Below are positions 19,475 to 43,748 of a DNA stretch of 64,000 nt, in pieces. The position numbers and the translations under genes were made by a program. Under the pieces are notes generated by a model. It searched no databases and was not told the origin of the DNA. It was given only the letters and a program-made list of their open reading frames with translations. Origin of the DNA: a virus; the IMG/VR virus record IMGVR_UViG_3300025446_000004, positions 1 through 64,000 of that record; one strand, 5' to 3'. Every line of letters starts with the position of its first letter. The first letter of the stretch is position 1.

Positions 19475-22438
19475 CTACCCCATCAAATCAGCAAACGGAT
19501 CAATGGATTCAGGCTCTTGCACAGCCTGTGCTTGTTCAACTTGAAAAGCCGTCCGTGGGTTATCGTCAGCCGCCATATTACTACTCAAATACGAATATTT
19601 TCCAGTACAGTAAACCAAATCCGAAAGCTCAGCCTCTCTCTGGTGGGCGGCATAATCTACGTTGGTTACTTCTAACCTACTACCCATATCCGCATACGCG
19701 CTAAACTGACTAACCAGTAATGACAATGCATCCACTATGTCATCATGAACGTCATCGCTAGTGCCGGTAAACTGCTCCATCTCGTTATAGATTTCTTCCA
19801 ACCCTTCGCAGGATTTAGAAAAATATAGTCGCTCATCCCCCAACAAACGAAGCACTGGTTTTGCTTTCAGTTGCTTTGATTTCGCCTTAGTACCTAACCC
19901 AAGCGACACGAACTCAACAGGAATGGAAATCTGTAGCTTCTGCATTTCCCGTCGCAACTCGGGACTAATCCACTTCACGCCCACAGAGTTTTCGATACAT
20001 ATCCTCTTAGGCTTCCACTTCAAACCAATAGCCGCGATCACAGACGGCAACTCATACTCATTAAACCGTCCCCTGACCATATTCAAGATGTAAAACCTAC
20101 CCCCATAAATCAGGGCAGTAATAATCACAGTGTAATCTGCCCATGACTTCAAAGAATACGCAGCATCTACTACCGATACAATCACTCCCTGTTGAGGAAG
20201 TTGTATCTGTGGAATTGTACGGCGCATCAAAAGTTCACGTGGAAACTTTATCTTATGCACCTGACGCGGATCATTGAGATACTTGATTGGAAAAACATCG
20301 GGGTCTTGTTCCTTCAAACCCATCAATGTATCATATGACAGAAGTTCAGGAAACCAAATAACCCAATCACTTGCTACTGTCTCTTCCTCAATCTTACCTA
20401 GTCGTTTGGCTTCATCTGTGAGCCAAAGCGCAGCACGAAGGTGTACCTTTGCCAAAACCGCACTATCAAATTGCCCGCTGTCAATAGAACCACGTATGTT
20501 GCCTTGCAAACCATGTCTTTCTGCACTTGAAATCTCTTTGGAAATCATCTGGCCGTAATAATCGTGCTCATCATACCACGTACCAATAACATCCAGAAAA
20601 CCATACGGATGCATTAGAGCTTTATTGATGCCTATTTGCCTGTTAACTTTTGCAAGTCGATCAAGGGTCAAACTGTTTTCGTTTGTAACCACGTCATCCA
20701 ACTTCATCACACAGTTATGTGTAACTGCACCAACTATGCAAATTGTTTCGTCCTCTTCTATCTGAACAGAAATAACAGAACCCACACCAACACGGTCTAC
20801 ACTTTCAACAATAGATGTGTCGCTTCCGTTTCTTGGGTTAGTTGGTTTTCCTTCATATAGTCCTACATTTCCCCATACACGCAAAGTATGATTCTCTTTA
20901 ACGGCCACGCTGCAAGACTGTTGCAAACCGAGTTTTTGCTTTATCATTAAAGCACCGGCAGCTATTTCATCTGATATGGTTGTCAGGCTACCACGGTCAT
21001 CTCCATCACCAGACCACATCCCACGAACAAGGGCCATCAATAATTCCCTTGGAGAATTTATTAACCATGCCGGTATATTTTTCCTGCATGGCCCAACATA
21101 CATTGACCGAAAAACATCAGTAAAAACTTTTGGTGCCTTTCGTATATAAAGAACAATCCCTCTATCACAAACCTGCTTTATTCTATAACTATCTGCTCCA
21201 TATGCAACAAAAAGTTTTCCTAAATTTTCAAAAACCTCAGTTTCATCGATATTGCCTGAAAATTGAACCTGATTATTACGAATAGAACCTTCTGCAATAA
21301 ACCAACCAAACATATTATAAACAGATTCTAACTGCGGTATAGGGGATGAGGGAGATTCATTTACAACAGGTCTCATAATTTTTGTTCCAATTACTAGATT
21401 TTCAGCATCTTCCCAACCCTGGTCTGTCAAAAACGGGTGGTCAACCGAACAAGTAACCGGGAACGCTCCAATCTTCTTAAACGTGATTGTTACTCTATCT
21501 GATAATCTTTCTTTTAATGCAACAACCCTCCTGTACCTTCCTTTATGAGTAAGAACTTTGTCTCCAATTTGAAAGTTCTTAACTTGCTTTACACCATCCT
21601 CGGTATAGACCCAAGTATCTGGAGAAAGACAATAGTGCGCACCAGACAAAGCTTGTTCAATAGATGCCGACCGTACTGACGGTTCCCTTATCTCACCAGC
21701 AGCAGCGGTTTGAAACTCTGTTTGAATACCTTCACCGGGAGGAATACAGTGTTCAGGAAACAAAACTTGAAAAATACTGGTCTCTTTATCTCCCGTAACG
21801 CGGTCCAAAACCTTACATGGCCTATAAATAGGCTTTTTTGTGGTTTCGTCTATGCTCCCGCTATCTTCCATCATAAAGTGCGCTCTAAGCTCCGAAATAA
21901 AATCAGTAGCGAGCTTGAACACTCCGGTCATAATGGCTATAGTTATCTCTGGATAGCAAACAATCCACTGTACACAATCAGCAATGTCAATAGAACTCTT
22001 AAATCCACCACGAGGAACCAAAAGCAAGCGACTTTTCAGGTCACCGTAACCATCTGCAAACGCACGAAACGTAGGAAGAGTGGGGTCTTTCTGCACAAAA
22101 AAACTATTGCATATATACTCATGTGCGCCTAACGTAACCTGACCGTATATAACCAACAACTTGCACATGAAATATAAATTAGTCTGCGCCAAAAAGCGCA
22201 GTCTCATCATTTCCCCGGTCGCATTAACCTGTTCCGCATGGTCACCAGATTCAGAAAGAAATTTATGCCAACTATCAAAAACTGCACACTGTTGTTCGTC
22301 TGATAACCTCTGGAAACTACGAACAGAAAGCTGCATGAATTCGCCGTCAGGTTCATTATCGTCATGAAGCCGATAATACTGATAGTGTTCATTCGCACGA
22401 CACTCTGCCGCTACCCGCCTAAGCTCCTCCAAGTTCAT
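19475..22438 (-). CDS. terL: Terminase large subunit (intein-containing)
   Basis: Walker A LVPRGGFKSS, Walker B MKLDD, coupling motif VIGTWY, nuclease VDAA...DY...HDDIVDAL. Confidence 0.9.
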   Translation of the reverse strand: MNLEELRRVAAECRANEHYQYYRLHDDNEPDGEFMQLSVRSFQRLSDEQQCAVFDSWHKFLSESGDHAEQVNATGEMMRLRFLAQTNLYFMCKLLVIYGQVTLGAHEYICNSFFVQKDPTLPTFRAFADGYGDLKSRLLLVPRGGFKSSIDIADCVQWIVCYPEITIAIMTGVFKLATDFISELRAHFMMEDSGSIDETTKKPIYRPCKVLDRVTGDKETSIFQVLFPEHCIPPGEGIQTEFQTAAAGEIREPSVRSASIEQALSGAHYCLSPDTWVYTEDGVKQVKNFQIGDKVLTHKGRYRRVVALKERLSDRVTITFKKIGAFPVTCSVDHPFLTDQGWEDAENLVIGTKIMRPVVNESPSSPIPQLESVYNMFGWFIAEGSIRNNQVQFSGNIDETEVFENLGKLFVAYGADSYRIKQVCDRGIVLYIRKAPKVFTDVFRSMYVGPCRKNIPAWLINSPRELLMALVRGMWSGDGDDRGSLTTISDEIAAGALMIKQKLGLQQSCSVAVKENHTLRVWGNVGLYEGKPTNPRNGSDTSIVESVDRVGVGSVISVQIEEDETICIVGAVTHNCVMKLDDVVTNENSLTLDRLAKVNRQIGINKALMHPYGFLDVIGTWYDEHDYYGQMISKEISSAERHGLQGNIRGSIDSGQFDSAVLAKVHLRAALWLTDEAKRLGKIEEETVASDWVIWFPELLSYDTLMGLKEQDPDVFPIKYLNDPRQVHKIKFPRELLMRRTIPQIQLPQQGVIVSVVDAAYSLKSWADYTVIITALIYGGRFYILNMVRGRFNEYELPSVIAAIGLKWKPKRICIENSVGVKWISPELRREMQKLQISIPVEFVSLGLGTKAKSKQLKAKPVLRLLGDERLYFSKSCEGLEEIYNEMEQFTGTSDDVHDDIVDALSLLVSQFSAYADMGSRLEVTNVDYAAHQREAELSDLVYCTGKYSYLSSNMAADDNPRTAFQVEQAQAVQEPESIDPFADLMG
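20714..21631 (-). mobile_element. Intein with LAGLIDADG endonuclease (306 aa)
   Basis: Starts CLSPDTWV, block B SVDHPFLT, GWFIAEGS and GMWSGDG motifs, ends VTHN followed by C(+1). Confidence 0.92.
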
Positions 22439-39977: not shown

Positions 39978-41528
39978 ATGGATTTTGTAACGCAATACCG
40001 GGCGGCCCGGCGAGTATCAACACCGCTGCTAGTCGTCCGCACATTTGACAGTAATTCAACCATCCGAACGATACGCGCAACTATCGGGGAAAAAATTGAG
40101 GATGTTGCGCTTATTCGTTGGGATATTTGCCACGGTTGCGAACCATTAACCAAACGGGCCGGGATCGAATTAAACGAAATGCTAGCGGGGGAAGAACCCG
40201 ATATTACCCTGTCACTAGAAAACACTTTGAGGCTAGCAGAAAAACAGGCACACTCTGACCAGTCAACCATGGTCACATTGTTTATTTGTAACGCTCATTT
40301 GTTCTGGCGTGATAATCCGCAAGTGATTCAAGGAATTTGGAATTTGCGCGATCTTTACAAGTCAAACGCTAACATGCTGGTGTTACTTACTTCCCCCGGT
40401 CAAACGGTACCGGCAGAATTGTCGAACGATGTTCTTGTGTTAGATGAACCGCTCCCCACACGTTCCGAACTCGGAAAAATCATTACTGATACTTTCCACT
40501 TTGCAAAATGGACTGCCCCAACTGGTGACCCACTAGAGCGGGCAGTTGATGCATTAGTGGGAGTGCCGGCTTTCGCAGCAGAGCAAAGTACCGCGATGAG
40601 TCTTGAAAGCAAAACTCAAGATTTAAATCTAAGCTCACTGTGGCAACACAAGCGAACTATTATTGCTCAGACTCCGGGGTTATCGTTATTTGACGGCGAC
40701 GATACGCTTGACAACATCGGAGGATTGGACAGTATCAAGTCATTCATTAGTTGTTTAATGAATGGGAAGCTTCCCCCGGCAGTGATCCTGTTTTCAGATG
40801 AAATTGAAAAAGGGTATGCCGGTACCGGAACCGATTTGAGCGGCACTAAAACGGAATTGACCGGCGGCACACTCACATGGACTGAGGAAAAAGGAATTGA
40901 CGGTATCCTATTACTTGGAGTACCCGGTGTGGGAAAATCGGCAATTATTAAGGCCATGGGTGGAACGTACAATCGGCCCGTTATCGGGTTCGATGTTGGA
41001 GCAATGCAGGGTTCGCTCGTGGGTCAATCAGGCGCAAACTTCCGCACTGCTACAAAAACGGTTGACGCAATTTCGGACGGAAAAATCCTGTGGGTCGCAA
41101 CATGTAACAGTGTTAATGCACTGCCTCCGGAGTTACGCTCACGATTCAAATTAGGCACTTTCTTTTTTGATGTTCCAACTGAAACGGAACGGGCCGCGAT
41201 TTGGAACATATACCGGGCAAAGTATGAAATACCGACGAATGATCCTACTCCGGATTGTACGGGGTGGACAGGCCGCGAAATTCGAGAGTGTGCATATAAG
41301 GCATACAGGTTTGGTATCACACTCAAGGAGGCGGCCCGGTACGTTGTTCCGGTAACCATTTCGAGTAAAGAACAAATTCAAGGCTTGAGGCTAGCAAGCT
41401 CTGGGAAGTATCTTTCGGCTAGTTACCCCGGTCTGTTCAATTGCCGGGGAGAGTTACCAGCAGCGAACATTGCAACCGTACCGGTTCTCCGTGCGGCCCG
41501 GTCACTCCAATTTGATGAGGAAAGGTAA
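39978..41528 (+). CDS. Ycf46-like AAA+ ATPase with rearranged motif order
   Basis: Degenerate N-terminal AAA domain; IGGLDSIK; VILFSDEIEK precedes GVPGVGKS; then VATCN..LPPEL.RF..FFFDVP. Confidence 0.85.
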   Translation: MDFVTQYRAARRVSTPLLVVRTFDSNSTIRTIRATIGEKIEDVALIRWDICHGCEPLTKRAGIELNEMLAGEEPDITLSLENTLRLAEKQAHSDQSTMVTLFICNAHLFWRDNPQVIQGIWNLRDLYKSNANMLVLLTSPGQTVPAELSNDVLVLDEPLPTRSELGKIITDTFHFAKWTAPTGDPLERAVDALVGVPAFAAEQSTAMSLESKTQDLNLSSLWQHKRTIIAQTPGLSLFDGDDTLDNIGGLDSIKSFISCLMNGKLPPAVILFSDEIEKGYAGTGTDLSGTKTELTGGTLTWTEEKGIDGILLLGVPGVGKSAIIKAMGGTYNRPVIGFDVGAMQGSLVGQSGANFRTATKTVDAISDGKILWVATCNSVNALPPELRSRFKLGTFFFDVPTETERAAIWNIYRAKYEIPTNDPTPDCTGWTGREIRECAYKAYRFGITLKEAARYVVPVTISSKEQIQGLRLASSGKYLSASYPGLFNCRGELPAANIATVPVLRAARSLQFDEER

Positions 41529-41532
41529 ACCG

Positions 41533-41916
41533 ATGAGTGCATATTCTGAATTCCCAATGTCCGAGTTTAAAGACTGTAACCTCTTGATCGAGGCAATGGA
41601 AAAAATGGGATACAGTCAAATCAGCCTCGACAAAACGAACTATGAATTGAGGCCAATGCAACCCGATTTAGTGTTTCGTAAAAATGGCGCATACGCTAGC
41701 ACGTGGAACGATGTAGGCTTCAAGCGTACCCCGAACGGCACTTATAGTGCTATGTTCTCGGATTACGCAACCGGCAATACTCAAACATGGGTGCAAAAAC
41801 TCAAAGGCGAGTACATCGAATGCGGTGTGATTCTCCAAGCCAAGAAAATGGGATTGCGGCCTGTGGGTCGCACTGAGAAAAATGGTAAGGTAACGCTCGT
41901 TTATCAGCGTGCATAA
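41533..41916 (+). CDS. DUF1257/Ycf35-like protein
   Basis: MSAYS...FKD..LLIEAMEKMGY...DVGFKR..NGTY; position next to a Ycf46-like ATPase. Confidence 0.75.
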   Translation: MSAYSEFPMSEFKDCNLLIEAMEKMGYSQISLDKTNYELRPMQPDLVFRKNGAYASTWNDVGFKRTPNGTYSAMFSDYATGNTQTWVQKLKGEYIECGVILQAKKMGLRPVGRTEKNGKVTLVYQRA

Positions 41917-41951: not shown

Positions 41952-42149
41952 ATGGCGAAAACGAAACTTGTAACCATTACGATTGACAAAGAAGCCGGCG
42001 GAGGATTCACATGCGATACAACCGGTTTCGAGGGCAAAGGGTGTGCCGATATTCACAGGATGTTTGAGTCTATTGGCGGCCCCGGCAAAACGGATCATAA
42101 GCCAGAGTGGAACCAAATACAACGGTTGAACGTTACGGCGGGGAGGTAA
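41952..42149 (+). CDS. DUF2997-like protein
   Basis: VTITIDK..G...DTTGFEGKGC...E..G.....KPEW, 65 aa. Confidence 0.75.
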   Translation: MAKTKLVTITIDKEAGGGFTCDTTGFEGKGCADIHRMFESIGGPGKTDHKPEWNQIQRLNVTAGR

Positions 42150-42152
42150 TCT

Positions 42153-42791
42153 ATGTTAGTTCATGCACGTATCGATAGCTCACAAGTCAATGGGCCGGGG
42201 AACCGGGCAGTGCTATGGTTTCAAGGTTGTTCCCTTAACTGCCTCGGATGTTGGAATGAGGGCACTCACCCATTTGATTTTGCTTATCACGTAGAATGGG
42301 GAACCATTCAAACATGGTTGATGAATTTACCGGCAGATGTAACAGGGTTGACCCTATCAGGGGGAGAGCCATTGCAGCACTCGTTTGACGTGCTAGCAAT
42401 AGCCGATTTTTTGAGCCTAGTACGGCCCGGTTTTTCCATTGGCTTATTCACGGGGTACACTCTGCCAGAGTTACGGGCCGGTCGATTCCAAACTATCGAC
42501 CAAACCGGAACCCGTTTGATACTCGGGGAACCGGAATTATGGGCCGCGATTGAAAACAGAATCGATTTTGCAGTAATGGGCCGGTTTAATCCGGGATTAG
42601 TAACCATTAAAAAACCGTTATGCGGTTCCGATAACCAAAGGGTTGTTCTATTCTCGAACCGCCATAAGCTTGCGGATTTTGACGGGCAAGCTTGCGAGAT
42701 TACAATTGGGGAACATGAGGGCCAGATGTGCGCAACTATGACGGGGTTCCCCGGTTCTGAATTCATTACCAGCATCAAAACTGCCCTATAA
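42153..42791 (+). CDS. Radical SAM protein, NrdG/activase-like
   Basis: VNGPGNRAVLWFQGCSLNCLGCWN (CX3CX2C), SGGEP, TGY, GSDNQR. Confidence 0.85.
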   Translation: MLVHARIDSSQVNGPGNRAVLWFQGCSLNCLGCWNEGTHPFDFAYHVEWGTIQTWLMNLPADVTGLTLSGGEPLQHSFDVLAIADFLSLVRPGFSIGLFTGYTLPELRAGRFQTIDQTGTRLILGEPELWAAIENRIDFAVMGRFNPGLVTIKKPLCGSDNQRVVLFSNRHKLADFDGQACEITIGEHEGQMCATMTGFPGSEFITSIKTAL

Positions 42792-42818: not shown

Positions 42819-43748
42819 ATGGCTGAAAGCAACATTCAGACAATAACATTCAACGATGTAAGCGGGTTATCATCTCAAGTGATGTTTTTACAATTGCGGG
42901 CCGGTTTACTCGGGAACTCTCGAAAAATGGGAGGCGATATTTTCAACACTCCGGGAACCGATGTTGCATGGTTATCCGCAAACAAAAAACTCCTTGAGTC
43001 ACCGCAATTGGACGCGATACGCAAAGCAGACATGCGCATACGTCAGTGGTTATATAACTCAAAGGGACCAGCGTTACCTTGCAGCTTTGATGCGTTTACA
43101 ATTCCTAATGGTTCCGTTGTTTCAGTACGGAACAAGCTTGAGGAATTTAAAACGGAACGGGCCGGGTTGGTTGATGAATTCATGGCGGTGTACGTGGAAC
43201 AATCAAGGGAAGCAAGGGAAAAACTCGGCCCGCAATGGAATCCACACGAGTACTTGACCCCCGAACGTGTTCGAGCGAAATTTTACTTTGAGTATTCCTT
43301 TTATGGTTTCGGAGTCTCCGAAACACTTAAAGAAATTTCGCAAGAACTCTACGATGAACAAAAAAACAAAATCGAATCGGATTTTCGCAATGCAGCGGAC
43401 GAGATCACCGCAGTGATGCGGGAAACTGCTTTCGGGTTACTGCAAAACTTGCAAGAACAATTGACCCCGGACGATACCACGGGCAAAGCTAAAAAACTTC
43501 ATCCGGCGGCCCTTGCGAACGTTAAAAACTTTCTTGAAAGTTTCAGCATCAAGAATGTTACAAATGACAATGAACTCTCAAACATTCTCGCGCAAGTGAA
43601 AACACTGGTGACCGGGGTCGATACAAAAACCATTAAGGCCAGCGAGTCATTTAAAACAAACATGCGCGATAAACTCGCAGAGATTACCGGGAAACTTTCG
43701 ACCATGGTCGAGGAAAAATCGGGCCGCAAGTTTCTATTCGATGAGTGA
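42819..43748 (+). CDS. DUF3150-like helical protein
   Basis: 309 aa; ANKKLL...F...Y.....EAREKLG..W....Y...E.VR.KF.F pattern recalled from this MGE family. Confidence 0.55.
   Translation: MAESNIQTITFNDVSGLSSQVMFLQLRAGLLGNSRKMGGDIFNTPGTDVAWLSANKKLLESPQLDAIRKADMRIRQWLYNSKGPALPCSFDAFTIPNGSVVSVRNKLEEFKTERAGLVDEFMAVYVEQSREAREKLGPQWNPHEYLTPERVRAKFYFEYSFYGFGVSETLKEISQELYDEQKNKIESDFRNAADEITAVMRETAFGLLQNLQEQLTPDDTTGKAKKLHPAALANVKNFLESFSIKNVTNDNELSNILAQVKTLVTGVDTKTIKASESFKTNMRDKLAEITGKLSTMVEEKSGRKFLFDE

What the first reader, a model, noticed from the sequence alone, without database searches (positions are those of the whole stretch)
40690..41220. AAA+ ATPase with Walker B segment placed before Walker A (internal permutation)
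Seen: in one uninterrupted ORF the order is IGGLDSIK, then PPAVILFSDEIEK..GTDLSG..TELTGGTLTWTEEK (Walker B plus following helix, from 40782), then GILLLGVPGVGKS (Walker A, 40917-40940), then FDVGAMQGSLVGQS..VDAIS, then ILWVATCN (sensor 1) and LPPELRSRF. Established: canonical AAA+ domains, including Ycf46, run Walker A, strand 2, Walker B, sensor 1. Here the strand after VDAIS has no DE and goes straight to sensor 1. Inference: two consecutive beta-alpha blocks were swapped while all catalytic residues were kept, giving a rewired P-loop topology that standard HMMs would only partly match.
Basis: partly seen in the sequence, partly recalled or inferred. Interest (0 to 1): 0.85.

Follow-up and report, generated by a model that had tools for sequence, protein, structure and literature searches.

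The report
AAA ATPase with swapped Walker blocks
A peat-soil phage gene encodes an AAA-type motor ATPase in which the piece of chain carrying the catalytic Walker B acids lies in front of the ATP-binding P-loop piece instead of behind it, a rewiring shared by a very large phage and prophage family that keeps every catalytic residue.

Summary
Confirmed. The intact 516-aa ORF 39978..41528 (+) has the order N-domain, GGLD helix, [strand-Walker B-helix, res 265-305], [Walker A to helix 2, res 308-366], sensor 1, arginine finger, lid. A profile of normal-order relatives hits it in four pieces whose profile coordinates run 18-275 / 351-390 / 294-352 / 394-441. The same out-of-order pattern occurs in 119 of 120 database homologues, 148 of 150 cluster representatives, 80 of 81 viral loci and 80 of 80 bacterial-genome loci. 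Normal-order relatives give one contiguous hit.

It is not a misassembly: contigs from four other peat or wetland runs are collinear.

Catalytic residues are essentially invariant in 344 sequences. AlphaFold confidence is high (pLDDT 92.7), and covariation puts the moved strand next to the sensor-1 strand.

On a tree the swap needs one change. The gene sits in a conserved AAA-DUF1257-DUF2997-(radical SAM)-DUF3150 module.

I found no paper describing it. This scan has noted the same family in at least 26 other genomes. ATPase activity and the ring assembly remain untested.

The parts
39978..41528 (+). Whole gene: 516-aa two-domain Ycf46-like AAA ATPase with swapped core blocks
   Evidence: ORF list. 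Homologues. AF2 model pLDDT 92.7.
39978..40682 (+). N-terminal domain (res 1-235): degenerate AAA-like 'D1' domain without Walker motifs
   Evidence: Canonical-family HMM positions 18-275 match res 3-258, i-E 7.7e-16. phrog_8638 matches res 11-257. The whole model aligns to p97/Cdc48 D1-D2, Z 18.7, 399 residues aligned, rmsd 3.9.
40716..40760 (+). Helix alpha0 with the GGLD motif (res 247-261); in normal-order relatives it leads into strand beta1
   Evidence: Translation. Helix 251-261 in the model. Aligned to GGLenlkeW of the canonical HMM.
40770..40892 (+). Block B (res 265-305): strand beta3, Walker B D274-E275 (40797-40802), helix alpha3 with the LTW motif; relocated upstream of Walker A
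   Evidence: Maps to canonical HMM positions 351-390. The window's own i-E is 0.066; the family median is 1.2e-6, and 111 of 119 are below 1e-3. Strand 269-273 and helix 290-305 in the model. Covariation with the beta4 strand and alpha2.
40899..41075 (+). Block A (res 308-366): beta1, Walker A GVPGVGKS (40917-40940), alpha1, beta2, pore loop LVG (41016-41024), alpha2
   Evidence: Canonical HMM positions 294-352, i-E 1.2e-13. Pfam AAA profile 1-57. K320 in 344 of 344 and G349 in 344 of 344 sequences.
41085..41147 (+). Block C start: sensor-1 strand ILWVATCN (N377) and second region of homology LPPELRSRF (R387, R389)
   Evidence: Canonical HMM positions 394-441 match res 369-415, i-E 2.4e-5. Pfam AAA profile 100-124, weak, E 0.19. 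N377 in 344 of 344 and R389 in 343 of 344 sequences.
41181..41402 (+). Helical lid subdomain (res 402-475)
   Evidence: Helices 402-415, 432-445, 449-453, 459-474 in the model. Structural alignments to Vps4, spastin and p97 D2 run to res 478-487.
41533..41916 (+). Downstream partner 1: DUF1257 (Ycf35)-like protein, 127 aa
   Evidence: Pfam PF06868 E 0.0046, below cut-off. The Tunturi_3 counterpart gp102 gives 1.2e-7. Present downstream in 50 of 81 viral loci and 68 of 80 genome loci.
41952..42149 (+). Downstream partner 2: DUF2997-like protein, 65 aa
   Evidence: Pfam PF11211 E 0.11, weak. Tunturi_3 gp101 gives 9.1e-7. Present in 47 of 81 viral loci and 66 of 80 genome loci.
42153..42791 (+). 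NrdG-like radical SAM activase inside the module
   Evidence: Pfam Fer4_12 1.2e-22. NCBIfam NrdG 2.7e-20, below cut-off. Present in 6 of 81 viral loci and 66 of 80 genome loci.
42819..43748 (+). Downstream partner 3: DUF3150-like protein, 309 aa
   Evidence: Pfam PF11348 E 0.0034, below cut-off. Atlas clusters named DUF3150: feature score 0.98, structure TM 0.86. Present in 76 of 81 viral loci and 62 of 80 genome loci. AF2 model pLDDT 88.9.

Best explanation
This is a real, inherited, non-circular permutation inside the alpha/beta core of a classical-clade AAA ATPase.

Normal-order Ycf46-like relatives run alpha0, [beta1-Walker A-alpha1-beta2-pore loop-alpha2], [beta3-Walker B-alpha3], beta4 (sensor 1). 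Here the 41-residue beta3-Walker B-alpha3 unit is encoded directly after alpha0, in front of the 59-residue P-loop block, and alpha2 runs straight into the sensor-1 strand.

Shown: the order, the exact breakpoints, its presence in every close homologue examined, near-invariance of the catalytic residues, a confident five-strand model, and covariation that places the moved strand beside the sensor-1 strand and the moved helix on alpha2.

Inferred: the chain is re-threaded through an otherwise normal 5-1-4-3-2 parallel sheet. That strand order is established knowledge of the AAA+ fold. With it, both new connections (alpha3 to beta1, alpha2 to beta4) cross the sheet in the same direction as the old ones, so every helix can stay on its usual face and only three loops change. 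On this reading ATP is bound by K320/S321 and hydrolysed with D274/E275. N377 acts as sensor 1, and R389 (with R387) reaches into the neighbouring subunit of a ring. The LVG loop 347-349 pulls on a substrate.

The protein is a two-tier (D1-like plus D2) remodelling ATPase. It probably works with the co-inherited DUF1257, DUF2997 and DUF3150 proteins in the early/replication region of phages of Acidobacteriota.

The swap most likely arose once. The likeliest route is tandem duplication of the two blocks followed by loss of the outer copies, or a direct in-frame move of about 120 bases. No intermediate was seen.
For: Order and mapping:
- The canonical-family HMM hits the window protein in four pieces: residues 3-258, 265-304, 308-366 and 369-415, at HMM positions 18-275, 351-390, 294-352 and 394-441.
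- The same 'B before A' pattern occurs in 119 of 120 homologues, with the 120th, P0092, the same by eye. It occurs in 148 of 150 representatives at 50% identity; P0322 is the same by eye and block B is undetected in P0374. It occurs in 80 of 81 viral loci including Tunturi_3, with L065 the same by eye. It occurs in the full-length gene of 80 of 80 genome loci; one extra fragment, in L097, is unclear.
- Controls: Corndog gp96 and L338C gp050 give one contiguous hit and match Pfam AAA positions 2-130. By motif search, 117 of 120 L338C-like proteins are in normal order and 0 are permuted.

Not an artefact:
- Contigs from runs X13-X16, none flagged as a possible source, are collinear with no joints or indels.
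- X16 record 12 spans 40019-41358 with 12 substitutions, 11 of them at third codon positions. X13 record 2 spans 40142-41009 with none.

Selection (344 sequences): K320 344, E275 344, N377 344, G349 344, R389 343, D274 340 (the other 4 are E).

Fold:
- AF2 pLDDT 92.7, all five models at or above 90.8. The core has five strands: 269-273, 308-314, 335-338, 370-376 and 393-397.
- Z 16-17 to Vps4, spastin and p97 D2 for res 226-487, and Z 18.7 to p97 D1-D2 for the whole model.
- Mean-field DCA (327 sequences, Neff 236). Moved strand with beta4: L271-W372 (z 7.2), S273-W372 (6.6), I276-A374 (8.9). Strand start with the end of alpha2: V269-S366 (15.9). Alpha3 with alpha2: W301-D363 (11.0), K305-D363 (8.8). 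Beta1 with beta5: L312-F397, V315-V399. Beta1 end with the residue after sensor 1: L313-V379.

Single origin: on a tree of 95 rows, the 57 permuted rows form one side of a branch, SH-aLRT 99, one change. This also holds with the swapped columns removed.

Module: partner counts. The normal-order phage L338C also has DUF1257 (4.8e-9) and DUF2997 (2.5e-5) after its ATPase.
Against: - No coordinates of the model are available, so I could not measure the distance from D274/E275 to K320 or inspect the sheet. The 3D claim rests on secondary structure, confidence and covariation.
- The AF2 model and the DCA draw on overlapping alignments, so they are not fully independent.
- For the window's own protein, block B alone scores weakly against the canonical HMM (i-E 0.066) and gets no Pfam hit on its own. 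The mapping is carried by the family.
- The DCA control on normal-order proteins was underpowered (Neff 49). Only 2 of the 60 top pairs were shared (p 0.012). The shared alpha2-alpha3 pair ranked 5th of 22,155, but the beta3-beta4 pairs ranked only 679-1046.
- The pore loop lacks the usual aromatic residue (L347; Leu in 241 of 344). Position 388 of the RRR stretch is Ser in the window.
- There is no biochemical evidence of ATP hydrolysis, oligomer state or substrate.
- The tree samples only four normal-order lineages (three sampled sets and one single protein), each chosen by me, and used the quick search with SH-aLRT only. An unsampled normal-order lineage could fall inside the permuted group.
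Confidence: 0.8

Rival explanations
1. Assembly, frameshift or chimera artefact: the order is an error in this one contig.
For: The window comes from a metagenome-type assembly. Logan contigs of single runs are short, and none of those listed spans the whole 1701-base stretch.
Against: Contigs from four runs not flagged as the source cross the B-A and A-C junctions collinearly, without joints, indels or loose ends. An isolated, sequenced phage, Tunturi_3 gp103, has the same order. So do hundreds of proteins from unrelated samples at 36-72% identity.
Confidence: 0.01
2. No re-threaded fold. The upstream DE block belongs structurally to the N-terminal degenerate domain or to a linker, and the C-terminal domain is a Walker-B-less, ATP-binding but non-hydrolysing AAA module.
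For: Pfam sees only the Walker A half. Many AAA+ proteins carry inactive modules. I could not inspect coordinates.
Against: Block B maps to the D2 positions 351-392 of normal-order relatives, including the LTWMQ helix. It lies after the GGLD helix that precedes the D2 core. The N-domain already has its own five strands: 17-21, 44-49, 99-104, 133-138 and 153-156. Block B residues covary with beta4 and alpha2 of the C-terminal core. D274 and E275 are conserved in 340 and 344 of 344 sequences, which an unused motif would not be.
Confidence: 0.05
3. Three-dimensional domain swap. Block B of one subunit completes the core of the neighbouring subunit, so the active site is built in trans rather than by re-threading within one chain.
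For: Covariation cannot tell contacts within a chain from contacts between chains. AAA proteins are oligomers. The complex predictor was not available.
Against: The monomer model folds block B into its own core with pLDDT 90-96 across res 261-310. Only 2 residues separate helix 290-305 from strand 308-314, and only 3 separate helix 348-366 from strand 370-376. This fits packing within one chain and leaves little slack for reaching a neighbour.
Confidence: 0.07

Closest known systems
Normal-order two-domain Ycf46-like AAA ATPases of phages: Rhizobium phage vB_RleS_L338C gp050 (AHC30467.1, 'AAA+ family ATPase') and Mycobacterium phage Corndog gp96 (NP_817947.1). JGI names relatives 'SpoVK/Ycf46/Vps4 family AAA+-type ATPase'.
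   Same: Homologous over the whole length at 24-25% identity. Same degenerate N-domain, GGLD helix, Walker A, pore-loop VG, Walker B DE(I/V)(E/D)K, LTWMQ helix, sensor-1 Asn, LPPE..R..R, and lid. L338C has the same downstream DUF1257 and DUF2997 genes, near replication genes.
   Different: Their AAA core is collinear with Pfam AAA positions 2-130. In the window family the Walker B unit precedes Walker A. About 12 linker residues between alpha0 and the first strand are missing: canonical HMM positions 276-293 go unmatched.
Cellular Ycf46 of Acidobacteriota (P0388-P0507; P0442 carries the UniRef name 'Uncharacterized AAA domain-containing protein ycf46', Solibacter usitatus)
   Same: Same two-domain build. 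It is present in the same Bryobacterales genome that carries a permuted copy (G002).
   Different: Normal order: one contiguous HMM hit, positions 31-525. It is a separate branch on the tree, SH-aLRT 100. No DUF1257/DUF2997/DUF3150-like neighbour was detected by phmmer in the 4.2-kb locus.
Type II classical AAA unfoldases p97/Cdc48, NVL, Rix7, and single-tier Vps4 and spastin (solved structures)
   Same: Best structural matches: Z 18.7 for the two tiers, and Z 16-17 for res 226-487 with 199-214 residues aligned at rmsd 2.6-3.4. Second region of homology with arginine finger. No sensor-2 arginine motif is evident; in its place is GWTGREI, like the G(F/Y)SGA(D/E)I that I recall for this clade.
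   Different: 12-20% identity. The first tier here has no nucleotide motifs. The chain order of the second tier is swapped. The pore loop is LVG rather than aromatic-hydrophobic-Gly.
Circularly permuted GTPases (RsgA/YjeQ, RbgA/YlqF, YqeH, YawG), with G4-G5-G1-G2-G3 order (PMC6912228, passages read)
   Same: A P-loop NTPase whose conserved motifs occur in a non-standard order along the chain while the fold is kept.
   Different: Those are circular permutations of a GTPase domain, with new N and C termini. Here the termini of the core are unchanged and two internal blocks have changed places (order N-B-A-C), in the AAA+ (ASCE) division.
Non-circular permutation of the HK97 capsid fold in Bordetella phage BPP-1 (PMC3863775; search listing only; my 'find' returned nothing)
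   Same: A phage protein in which internal segments of a well-known fold are re-ordered without loss of the fold.
   Different: A structural protein, an unrelated fold, and no catalytic site.

Membership tests
Classical AAA domain (Pfam PF00004) | Walker A GxxGxGK[ST] | tested here: met
   GVPGVGKS at res 314-321. K320 in 344 of 344 sequences; S/T321 in 344 of 344.
Classical AAA domain (Pfam PF00004) | Walker B hhhhDE | tested here: met
   AVILFSDE at res 268-275. D274 in 340 of 344 and E275 in 344 of 344 sequences.
Classical AAA domain (Pfam PF00004) | Chain order Walker A, then Walker B, then sensor 1, collinear with the family profile | tested here: not met
   Pfam matches only profile positions 1-57 of 131. 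The pieces map to 1-53 and 100-124 with nothing between. Canonical HMM coordinates run 351-390 before 294-352.
Classical AAA domain (Pfam PF00004) | Sensor-1 Asn and second region of homology with arginine finger(s) | tested here: met
   N377 in 344 of 344, R389 in 343 of 344, R387 in 233 of 344 sequences. Position 388 is R in 265 of 344 and Ser in the window.
Classical AAA domain (Pfam PF00004) | Pore loop 1: aromatic-hydrophobic-Gly (recalled definition) | tested here: inconclusive
   LVG at 347-349. G349 in 344 of 344 and V348 in 293 of 344 sequences. Position 347 is Leu in 241 and Phe in only 15 of 344.
Classical AAA domain (Pfam PF00004) | Five-stranded parallel core sheet plus helical lid | tested here: inconclusive
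   The model has five core strands and a helical C-terminal subdomain at pLDDT above 90, with Z 16-17 to Vps4, spastin and p97 D2. Covariation supports beta3-beta4 and beta1-beta5 neighbours. Coordinates could not be inspected. Pfam AAA_lid_3 is not hit in the window protein but is hit in Corndog gp96 and L338C gp050.
Classical AAA domain (Pfam PF00004) | ATP hydrolysis and ring (hexamer) assembly | not testable with these tools
No biochemical data exist.
Ycf46-like two-domain AAA proteins with DUF1257/DUF2997 partners | Homologous degenerate N-terminal domain | tested here: met
   Canonical HMM positions 18-275 match res 3-258, i-E 7.7e-16.
Ycf46-like two-domain AAA proteins with DUF1257/DUF2997 partners | DUF1257 and DUF2997 genes next to the ATPase | tested here: met
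   The window's own hits are weak (E 0.0046 and 0.11). Tunturi_3 gp102 and gp101 pass Pfam cut-offs. Found in 68 and 66 of 80 genome loci. L338C has both.
Circularly permuted P-loop NTPases | Circular permutation: the order is a rotation of the normal one, with new termini | tested here: not met
   The order is N-B-A-C with flanks unchanged. This is an internal exchange, not a rotation.
IteA/IetA anti-phage ATPase (NCBIfam NF042959, PADLOC PDLC02196) | Full-length match above the curated cut-off | tested here: not met
   24 bits against a cut-off of 510, P-loop region res 309-357 only. PADLOC gives 22 bits, res 310-357 only.

The most novel reading that the evidence does not exclude
A single ancient in-frame exchange moved the beta3-Walker B-alpha3 unit in front of the P-loop block and produced a re-threaded but fully active AAA+ core. 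That core then radiated into roughly a thousand 50%-identity clusters in phages and prophages, above all of Acidobacteriota. As far as I could find, this would be the first natural non-circular permutation inside the ASCE P-loop core. It would show that the chain order of this fold is historical rather than obligatory. It also tethers the catalytic Walker B unit directly to the N-domain/alpha0 linker, so the N-domain or the partner proteins might gate hydrolysis in a way normal AAA proteins cannot.
Probability: 0.6. Interest if true: 0.8.

Novelty: new variant of a known kind. Interest (0 to 1): 0.75.

Why it matters
The AAA+ core is one of the most studied enzyme folds, and its motif order (Walker A, Walker B, sensor 1) is treated as fixed. 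Profile libraries assume it, which is why Pfam sees only half of this domain and NCBIfam names nothing.

A large natural family that works with two core blocks exchanged would do four things:
- It would give a natural experiment on how folding pathway and chain connectivity matter for a P-loop motor.
- It would explain a systematic annotation blind spot in soil viromes.
- It would offer a template for engineering permuted motors.
- It would come with a cultivable test system, Tunturiibacter phage Tunturi_3 gp103 (PP885686). This is the only one of 43 matching records, in a collection of 50,697 phage records, that holds the permuted form.

The co-inherited DUF1257, DUF2997 and DUF3150 proteins have no known function, so the module is an open functional question in its own right.

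Tried and rejected
- Block B alone (window:40761-40895) against Pfam at E up to 10 gave no family. The piece is too short for the filters, so the canonical-family HMM was used instead.
- The sequence search of PDB found only the Walker A half (best E 0.002, res 309-387).
- Foldseek and VIA alignments are sequential and report ranges only. They cannot show where the moved block sits. About 200-214 of about 255 core residues align, which is compatible with one block being left out but proves nothing.
- Complex prediction (three copies of res 236-490 plus ATP) was not available, so there is no result on oligomers.
- Fold search for the DUF3150-like model was switched off. A profile search of PDB sequences gave nothing meaningful (best E 0.15). 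The Atlas only confirmed DUF3150-type clusters, mostly viral.
- The DCA control on normal-order proteins was underpowered (Neff 49).
- No RNA holder was listed among the 24 runs, so nothing can be said on expression.
- NCBIfam and PADLOC gave only partial P-loop hits to IteA/IetA, far below cut-off. Membership in a known defence family was rejected.
- I looked for B-A-B intermediates (two Walker B copies) among the 120 + 150 + 81 + 80 sequences classified and saw none. Hits below the listed ranks could not be examined.
- Literature. (AAA+ with permutation terms) gave only methyltransferase or GTPase permutations. One search gave no paper with 'Walker B precedes', 'Walker B motif precedes', 'Walker B upstream' or 'reversed order Walker'. 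One search gave 0 papers for 'permuted AAA', 'permuted P-loop', 'permuted ATPase', 'permuted Walker', 'permutation of the AAA' and 'permuted NTPase'. In the Tunturi phage paper (PMC11924767) a 'find' gave 0 occurrences of ATPase, AAA or Walker in the main text. DUF3150 occurs in one unrelated preprint. Only open-access papers and bioRxiv were searched.
Full report
**Observation.** The window carries an uninterrupted 516-aa ORF at 39978..41528 on the + strand.
- IGGLDSIKSFISCLM (40716-40760).
- LPPAVILFSDEIEKGYAGTGTDLSGTKTELTGGTLTWTEEK (40770-40892, with D274-E275 at 40797-40802).
- DGILLLGVPGVGKS...LVGQSGANFRTATKTVDAIS (40899-41075, Walker A at 40917-40940).
- ILWVATCN (41085-41108) and LPPELRSRF (41121-41147).

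No acidic pair follows VDAIS. Pfam's AAA model matches residues 310-366 only, profile positions 1-57 of 131.

**Is it a swap?** Two distant phage relatives with the same overall build are Mycobacterium phage Corndog gp96 and Rhizobium phage L338C gp050, at 24-25% identity. They have the usual order and match Pfam AAA positions 2-130 in one piece. In alignment A1 their Walker B segment has no counterpart at that place in the window family. The window family instead has an extra, similar segment upstream.

I collected 120 relatives of L338C gp050. By motif search, 117 of 120 are in normal order, 0 are permuted, and 3 miss one pattern. I built an HMM of 554 positions from them.

Against the window protein this HMM gives four hits:

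| Residues | HMM positions |
|---|---|
| 3-258 | 18-275 |
| 265-304 | 351-390 |
| 308-366 | 294-352 |
| 369-415 | 394-441 |

The two middle blocks are exchanged with clean borders. The window's own block-B hit is weak (i-E 0.066). The family median is 1.2e-6, and 111 of 119 are below 1e-3.

**Family-wide, not an artefact.** The out-of-order pattern was found as follows:

| Set | 'B before A' | Exceptions |
|---|---|---|
| Best database homologues | 119 of 120 | P0092 the same by eye |
| Representatives at 50% identity | 148 of 150 | P0322 by eye; block B undetected in P0374 |
| Viral loci (80 IMG/VR contigs plus Tunturi_3) | 80 of 81 | L065 by eye |
| Bacterial-genome loci | 80 of 80 | one extra fragment unclear |

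The exhaustive representative search counts 5636 clusters at E up to 1e-3, 3302 at 1e-10 and 1125 at 1e-30. The best 150 are all at or below 1e-93 in one contiguous stretch. IMG/VR holds 376 contigs and the GTDB species genomes 416 stretches that encode a relative.

The gene's DNA is present in 24 listed peat or wetland metagenome runs. Contigs from four runs not flagged as a possible source lie collinearly over the junctions, with no joints, indels or loose ends. One of them is a variant with 12 substitutions, 11 at third codon positions. Misassembly is excluded.

**Selection on the active site.** Counts in 344 aligned family members:

| Residue | Role | Count of 344 |
|---|---|---|
| K320 | Walker A | 344 |
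| S/T321 | Walker A | 344 |
| E275 | Walker B | 344 |
| D274 | Walker B | 340 (the other 4 are Glu) |
| N377 | sensor 1 | 344 |
| R389 | arginine finger | 343 |
| G349 | pore loop | 344 |

An intein with a LAGLIDADG endonuclease interrupts one member (P0314) between block A and the sensor-1 strand. I recall that inteins favour conserved functional sites.

**Fold.**
- AlphaFold2 on a 118-sequence alignment gives pLDDT 92.7 and pTM 0.83, with all five models at or above 90.8.
- After helix 251-261 the model has strand 269-273, helix 290-305, strand 308-314, helix 320-330, strand 335-338, helix 348-366, strand 370-376, strand 393-397 and a helical lid. That is five core strands, as in AAA domains.
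- The whole model aligns to p97/Cdc48 D1-D2 (Z 18.7, 399 residues, rmsd 3.9). Residues 226-487 align to Vps4, spastin and p97 D2 (Z 16-17, 199-214 residues, rmsd 2.6-3.4). The N-terminal 235 residues are therefore a degenerate first AAA tier.
- The strongest couplings join block B to the places it would occupy in a normal AAA core. V269 pairs with S366, the end of alpha2, z 15.9. These two positions are neighbours along the chain in normal-order proteins. L271 and S273 pair with W372, and I276 with A374, which places the moved strand next to the sensor-1 strand. W301 and K305 pair with D363, E293 with G352, and G297 with R356 and F355, which places alpha3 on alpha2.
- The usual beta1-beta5 pairs (L312-F397, V315-V399) and L313-V379 are also present. 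Together, I276-A374 and L313-V379 bring the Walker B loop, sensor 1 and the P-loop to the same edge of the sheet.
- A control DCA on normal-order proteins was underpowered (Neff 49). It shared 2 of the 60 top pairs (p 0.012), including the alpha2-alpha3 pair, at rank 5 of 22,155.
- From the established 5-1-4-3-2 strand order, both new connections (alpha3 to beta1, alpha2 to beta4) cross the sheet in the same direction as the old ones. This is inference. It means the helices can stay on their faces and only loops change.

**Origin.**
- I built a tree in profile coordinates from 57 permuted proteins, 22 L338C-like proteins, 15 cellular Ycf46 proteins of Acidobacteriota and Corndog gp96.
- The permuted proteins are one side of a branch with SH-aLRT 99, and the order changes once. 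This also holds when profile columns 277-393 are dropped.
- The tree used the quick search and a sample of normal-order lineages that I chose, so one origin is supported but not proven.
- The breakpoints are the same in all sequences.
- Duplication of the two blocks followed by loss of the outer copies is the textbook route to such an order. I saw no intermediate.

**Context and likely role.**
- The genome is one 89,756-base virus record. It has family A DNA polymerase, terminase and RNA ligase genes.
- Downstream of the ATPase lie a DUF1257-like gene, a DUF2997-like gene, an NrdG-like radical SAM gene and a DUF3150-like gene.
- The partners recur on the same strand:

| Partner | Viral loci (of 81) | Genome loci (of 80) |
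|---|---|---|
| DUF3150-like | 76 | 62 |
| DUF1257-like | 50 | 68 |
| DUF2997-like | 47 | 66 |
| radical SAM | 6 | 66 |

- The best 80 genome loci are almost all Acidobacteriota MAGs (Terriglobia, Bryobacteraceae, Solibacter). Some genomes hold several copies; in G001, six places match through the Walker A block only.
- Their neighbours are phage replication genes: SNF2-type helicase, Sipho_Gp157 and SSB.
- Normal-order L338C has DUF1257 and DUF2997 after its ATPase too. The module is therefore older than the swap, or at least shared.
- I infer a ring-forming, ATP-driven remodelling enzyme of the early/replication programme of Acidobacteriota phages. The small partners would be its adaptors or substrates. 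Nothing here tests that.

**Comparison and novelty.**
- The protein works like a classical AAA ATPase and is homologous to Ycf46-like proteins. It fails the defining collinearity of the family profile (see Membership tests).
- The known precedent among P-loop NTPases is the circularly permuted GTPases (PMC6912228, passages read). Those are rotations with new termini, in another division.
- None of my searches of open-access papers and bioRxiv found a description of an AAA+ domain with Walker B ahead of Walker A.
- Within this scan the same family has been noted in at least 26 other genomes, and several follow-up agents reached the same verdict. Those are unchecked AI notes. My conclusions rest on the calls above, most of which were made before I read them.

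**Limits.** There are no coordinates, no oligomer prediction, no fold search for the DUF3150-like partner, no expression data and no biochemistry.

Noticed in passing
P0314 (896 aa, metagenome homologue); probably also L097:2518-4813: One family member carries an intein of about 400 aa with a LAGLIDADG homing endonuclease (Intein_splicing 1.3e-10, LAGLIDADG_3 5e-17) between block A and the sensor-1 strand. In L097 the match spans 2296 bases instead of about 1500, and the gene appears in two pieces.
   Followed up: partly
window 19475-22438 (-): The 986-aa terminase large-subunit ORF (phrog_38, res 579-921) has an N-terminal part that weakly matches an anaerobic ribonucleotide reductase large-subunit PHROG (res 247-371, E 8.3e-7). 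An NrdG-like activase lies at 42153-42791, but I saw no separate NrdD gene.
   Followed up: no
G001 (genome of L088; CAWHRX01 contigs): One 9-Mb Acidobacteriota MAG has six places that match through the Walker A block only (the hit pattern given by permuted genes), some on contigs of 2-3.6 Mb. A Bryobacterales MAG (G002) carries both a permuted copy and a normal-order cellular Ycf46 (L164:1495-3117, minus strand).
   Followed up: partly
window 42153-42791 and loci L084-L163: The NrdG-like radical SAM gene sits inside the ATPase module in 66 of 80 Acidobacteriota genome loci but in only 6 of 81 viral-contig loci. Why an activase of glycyl-radical enzymes travels with this module is unexplained.
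   Followed up: no
window 42819-43748: The DUF3150-like partner folds confidently (pLDDT 88.9). The model has a small sheet plus two helices of about 40 residues, 97-139 and 175-215. It has no solved relative by sequence. In genome loci an SSB gene often follows it.
   Followed up: partly
window 40523-40577: A contig from run X16 differs from the window at 12 positions clustered in 55 bases, 11 of them at third codon positions, and at no listed position elsewhere in its 1340 bases. This looks like a small recombined or strain-variable patch in the N-domain.
   Followed up: no
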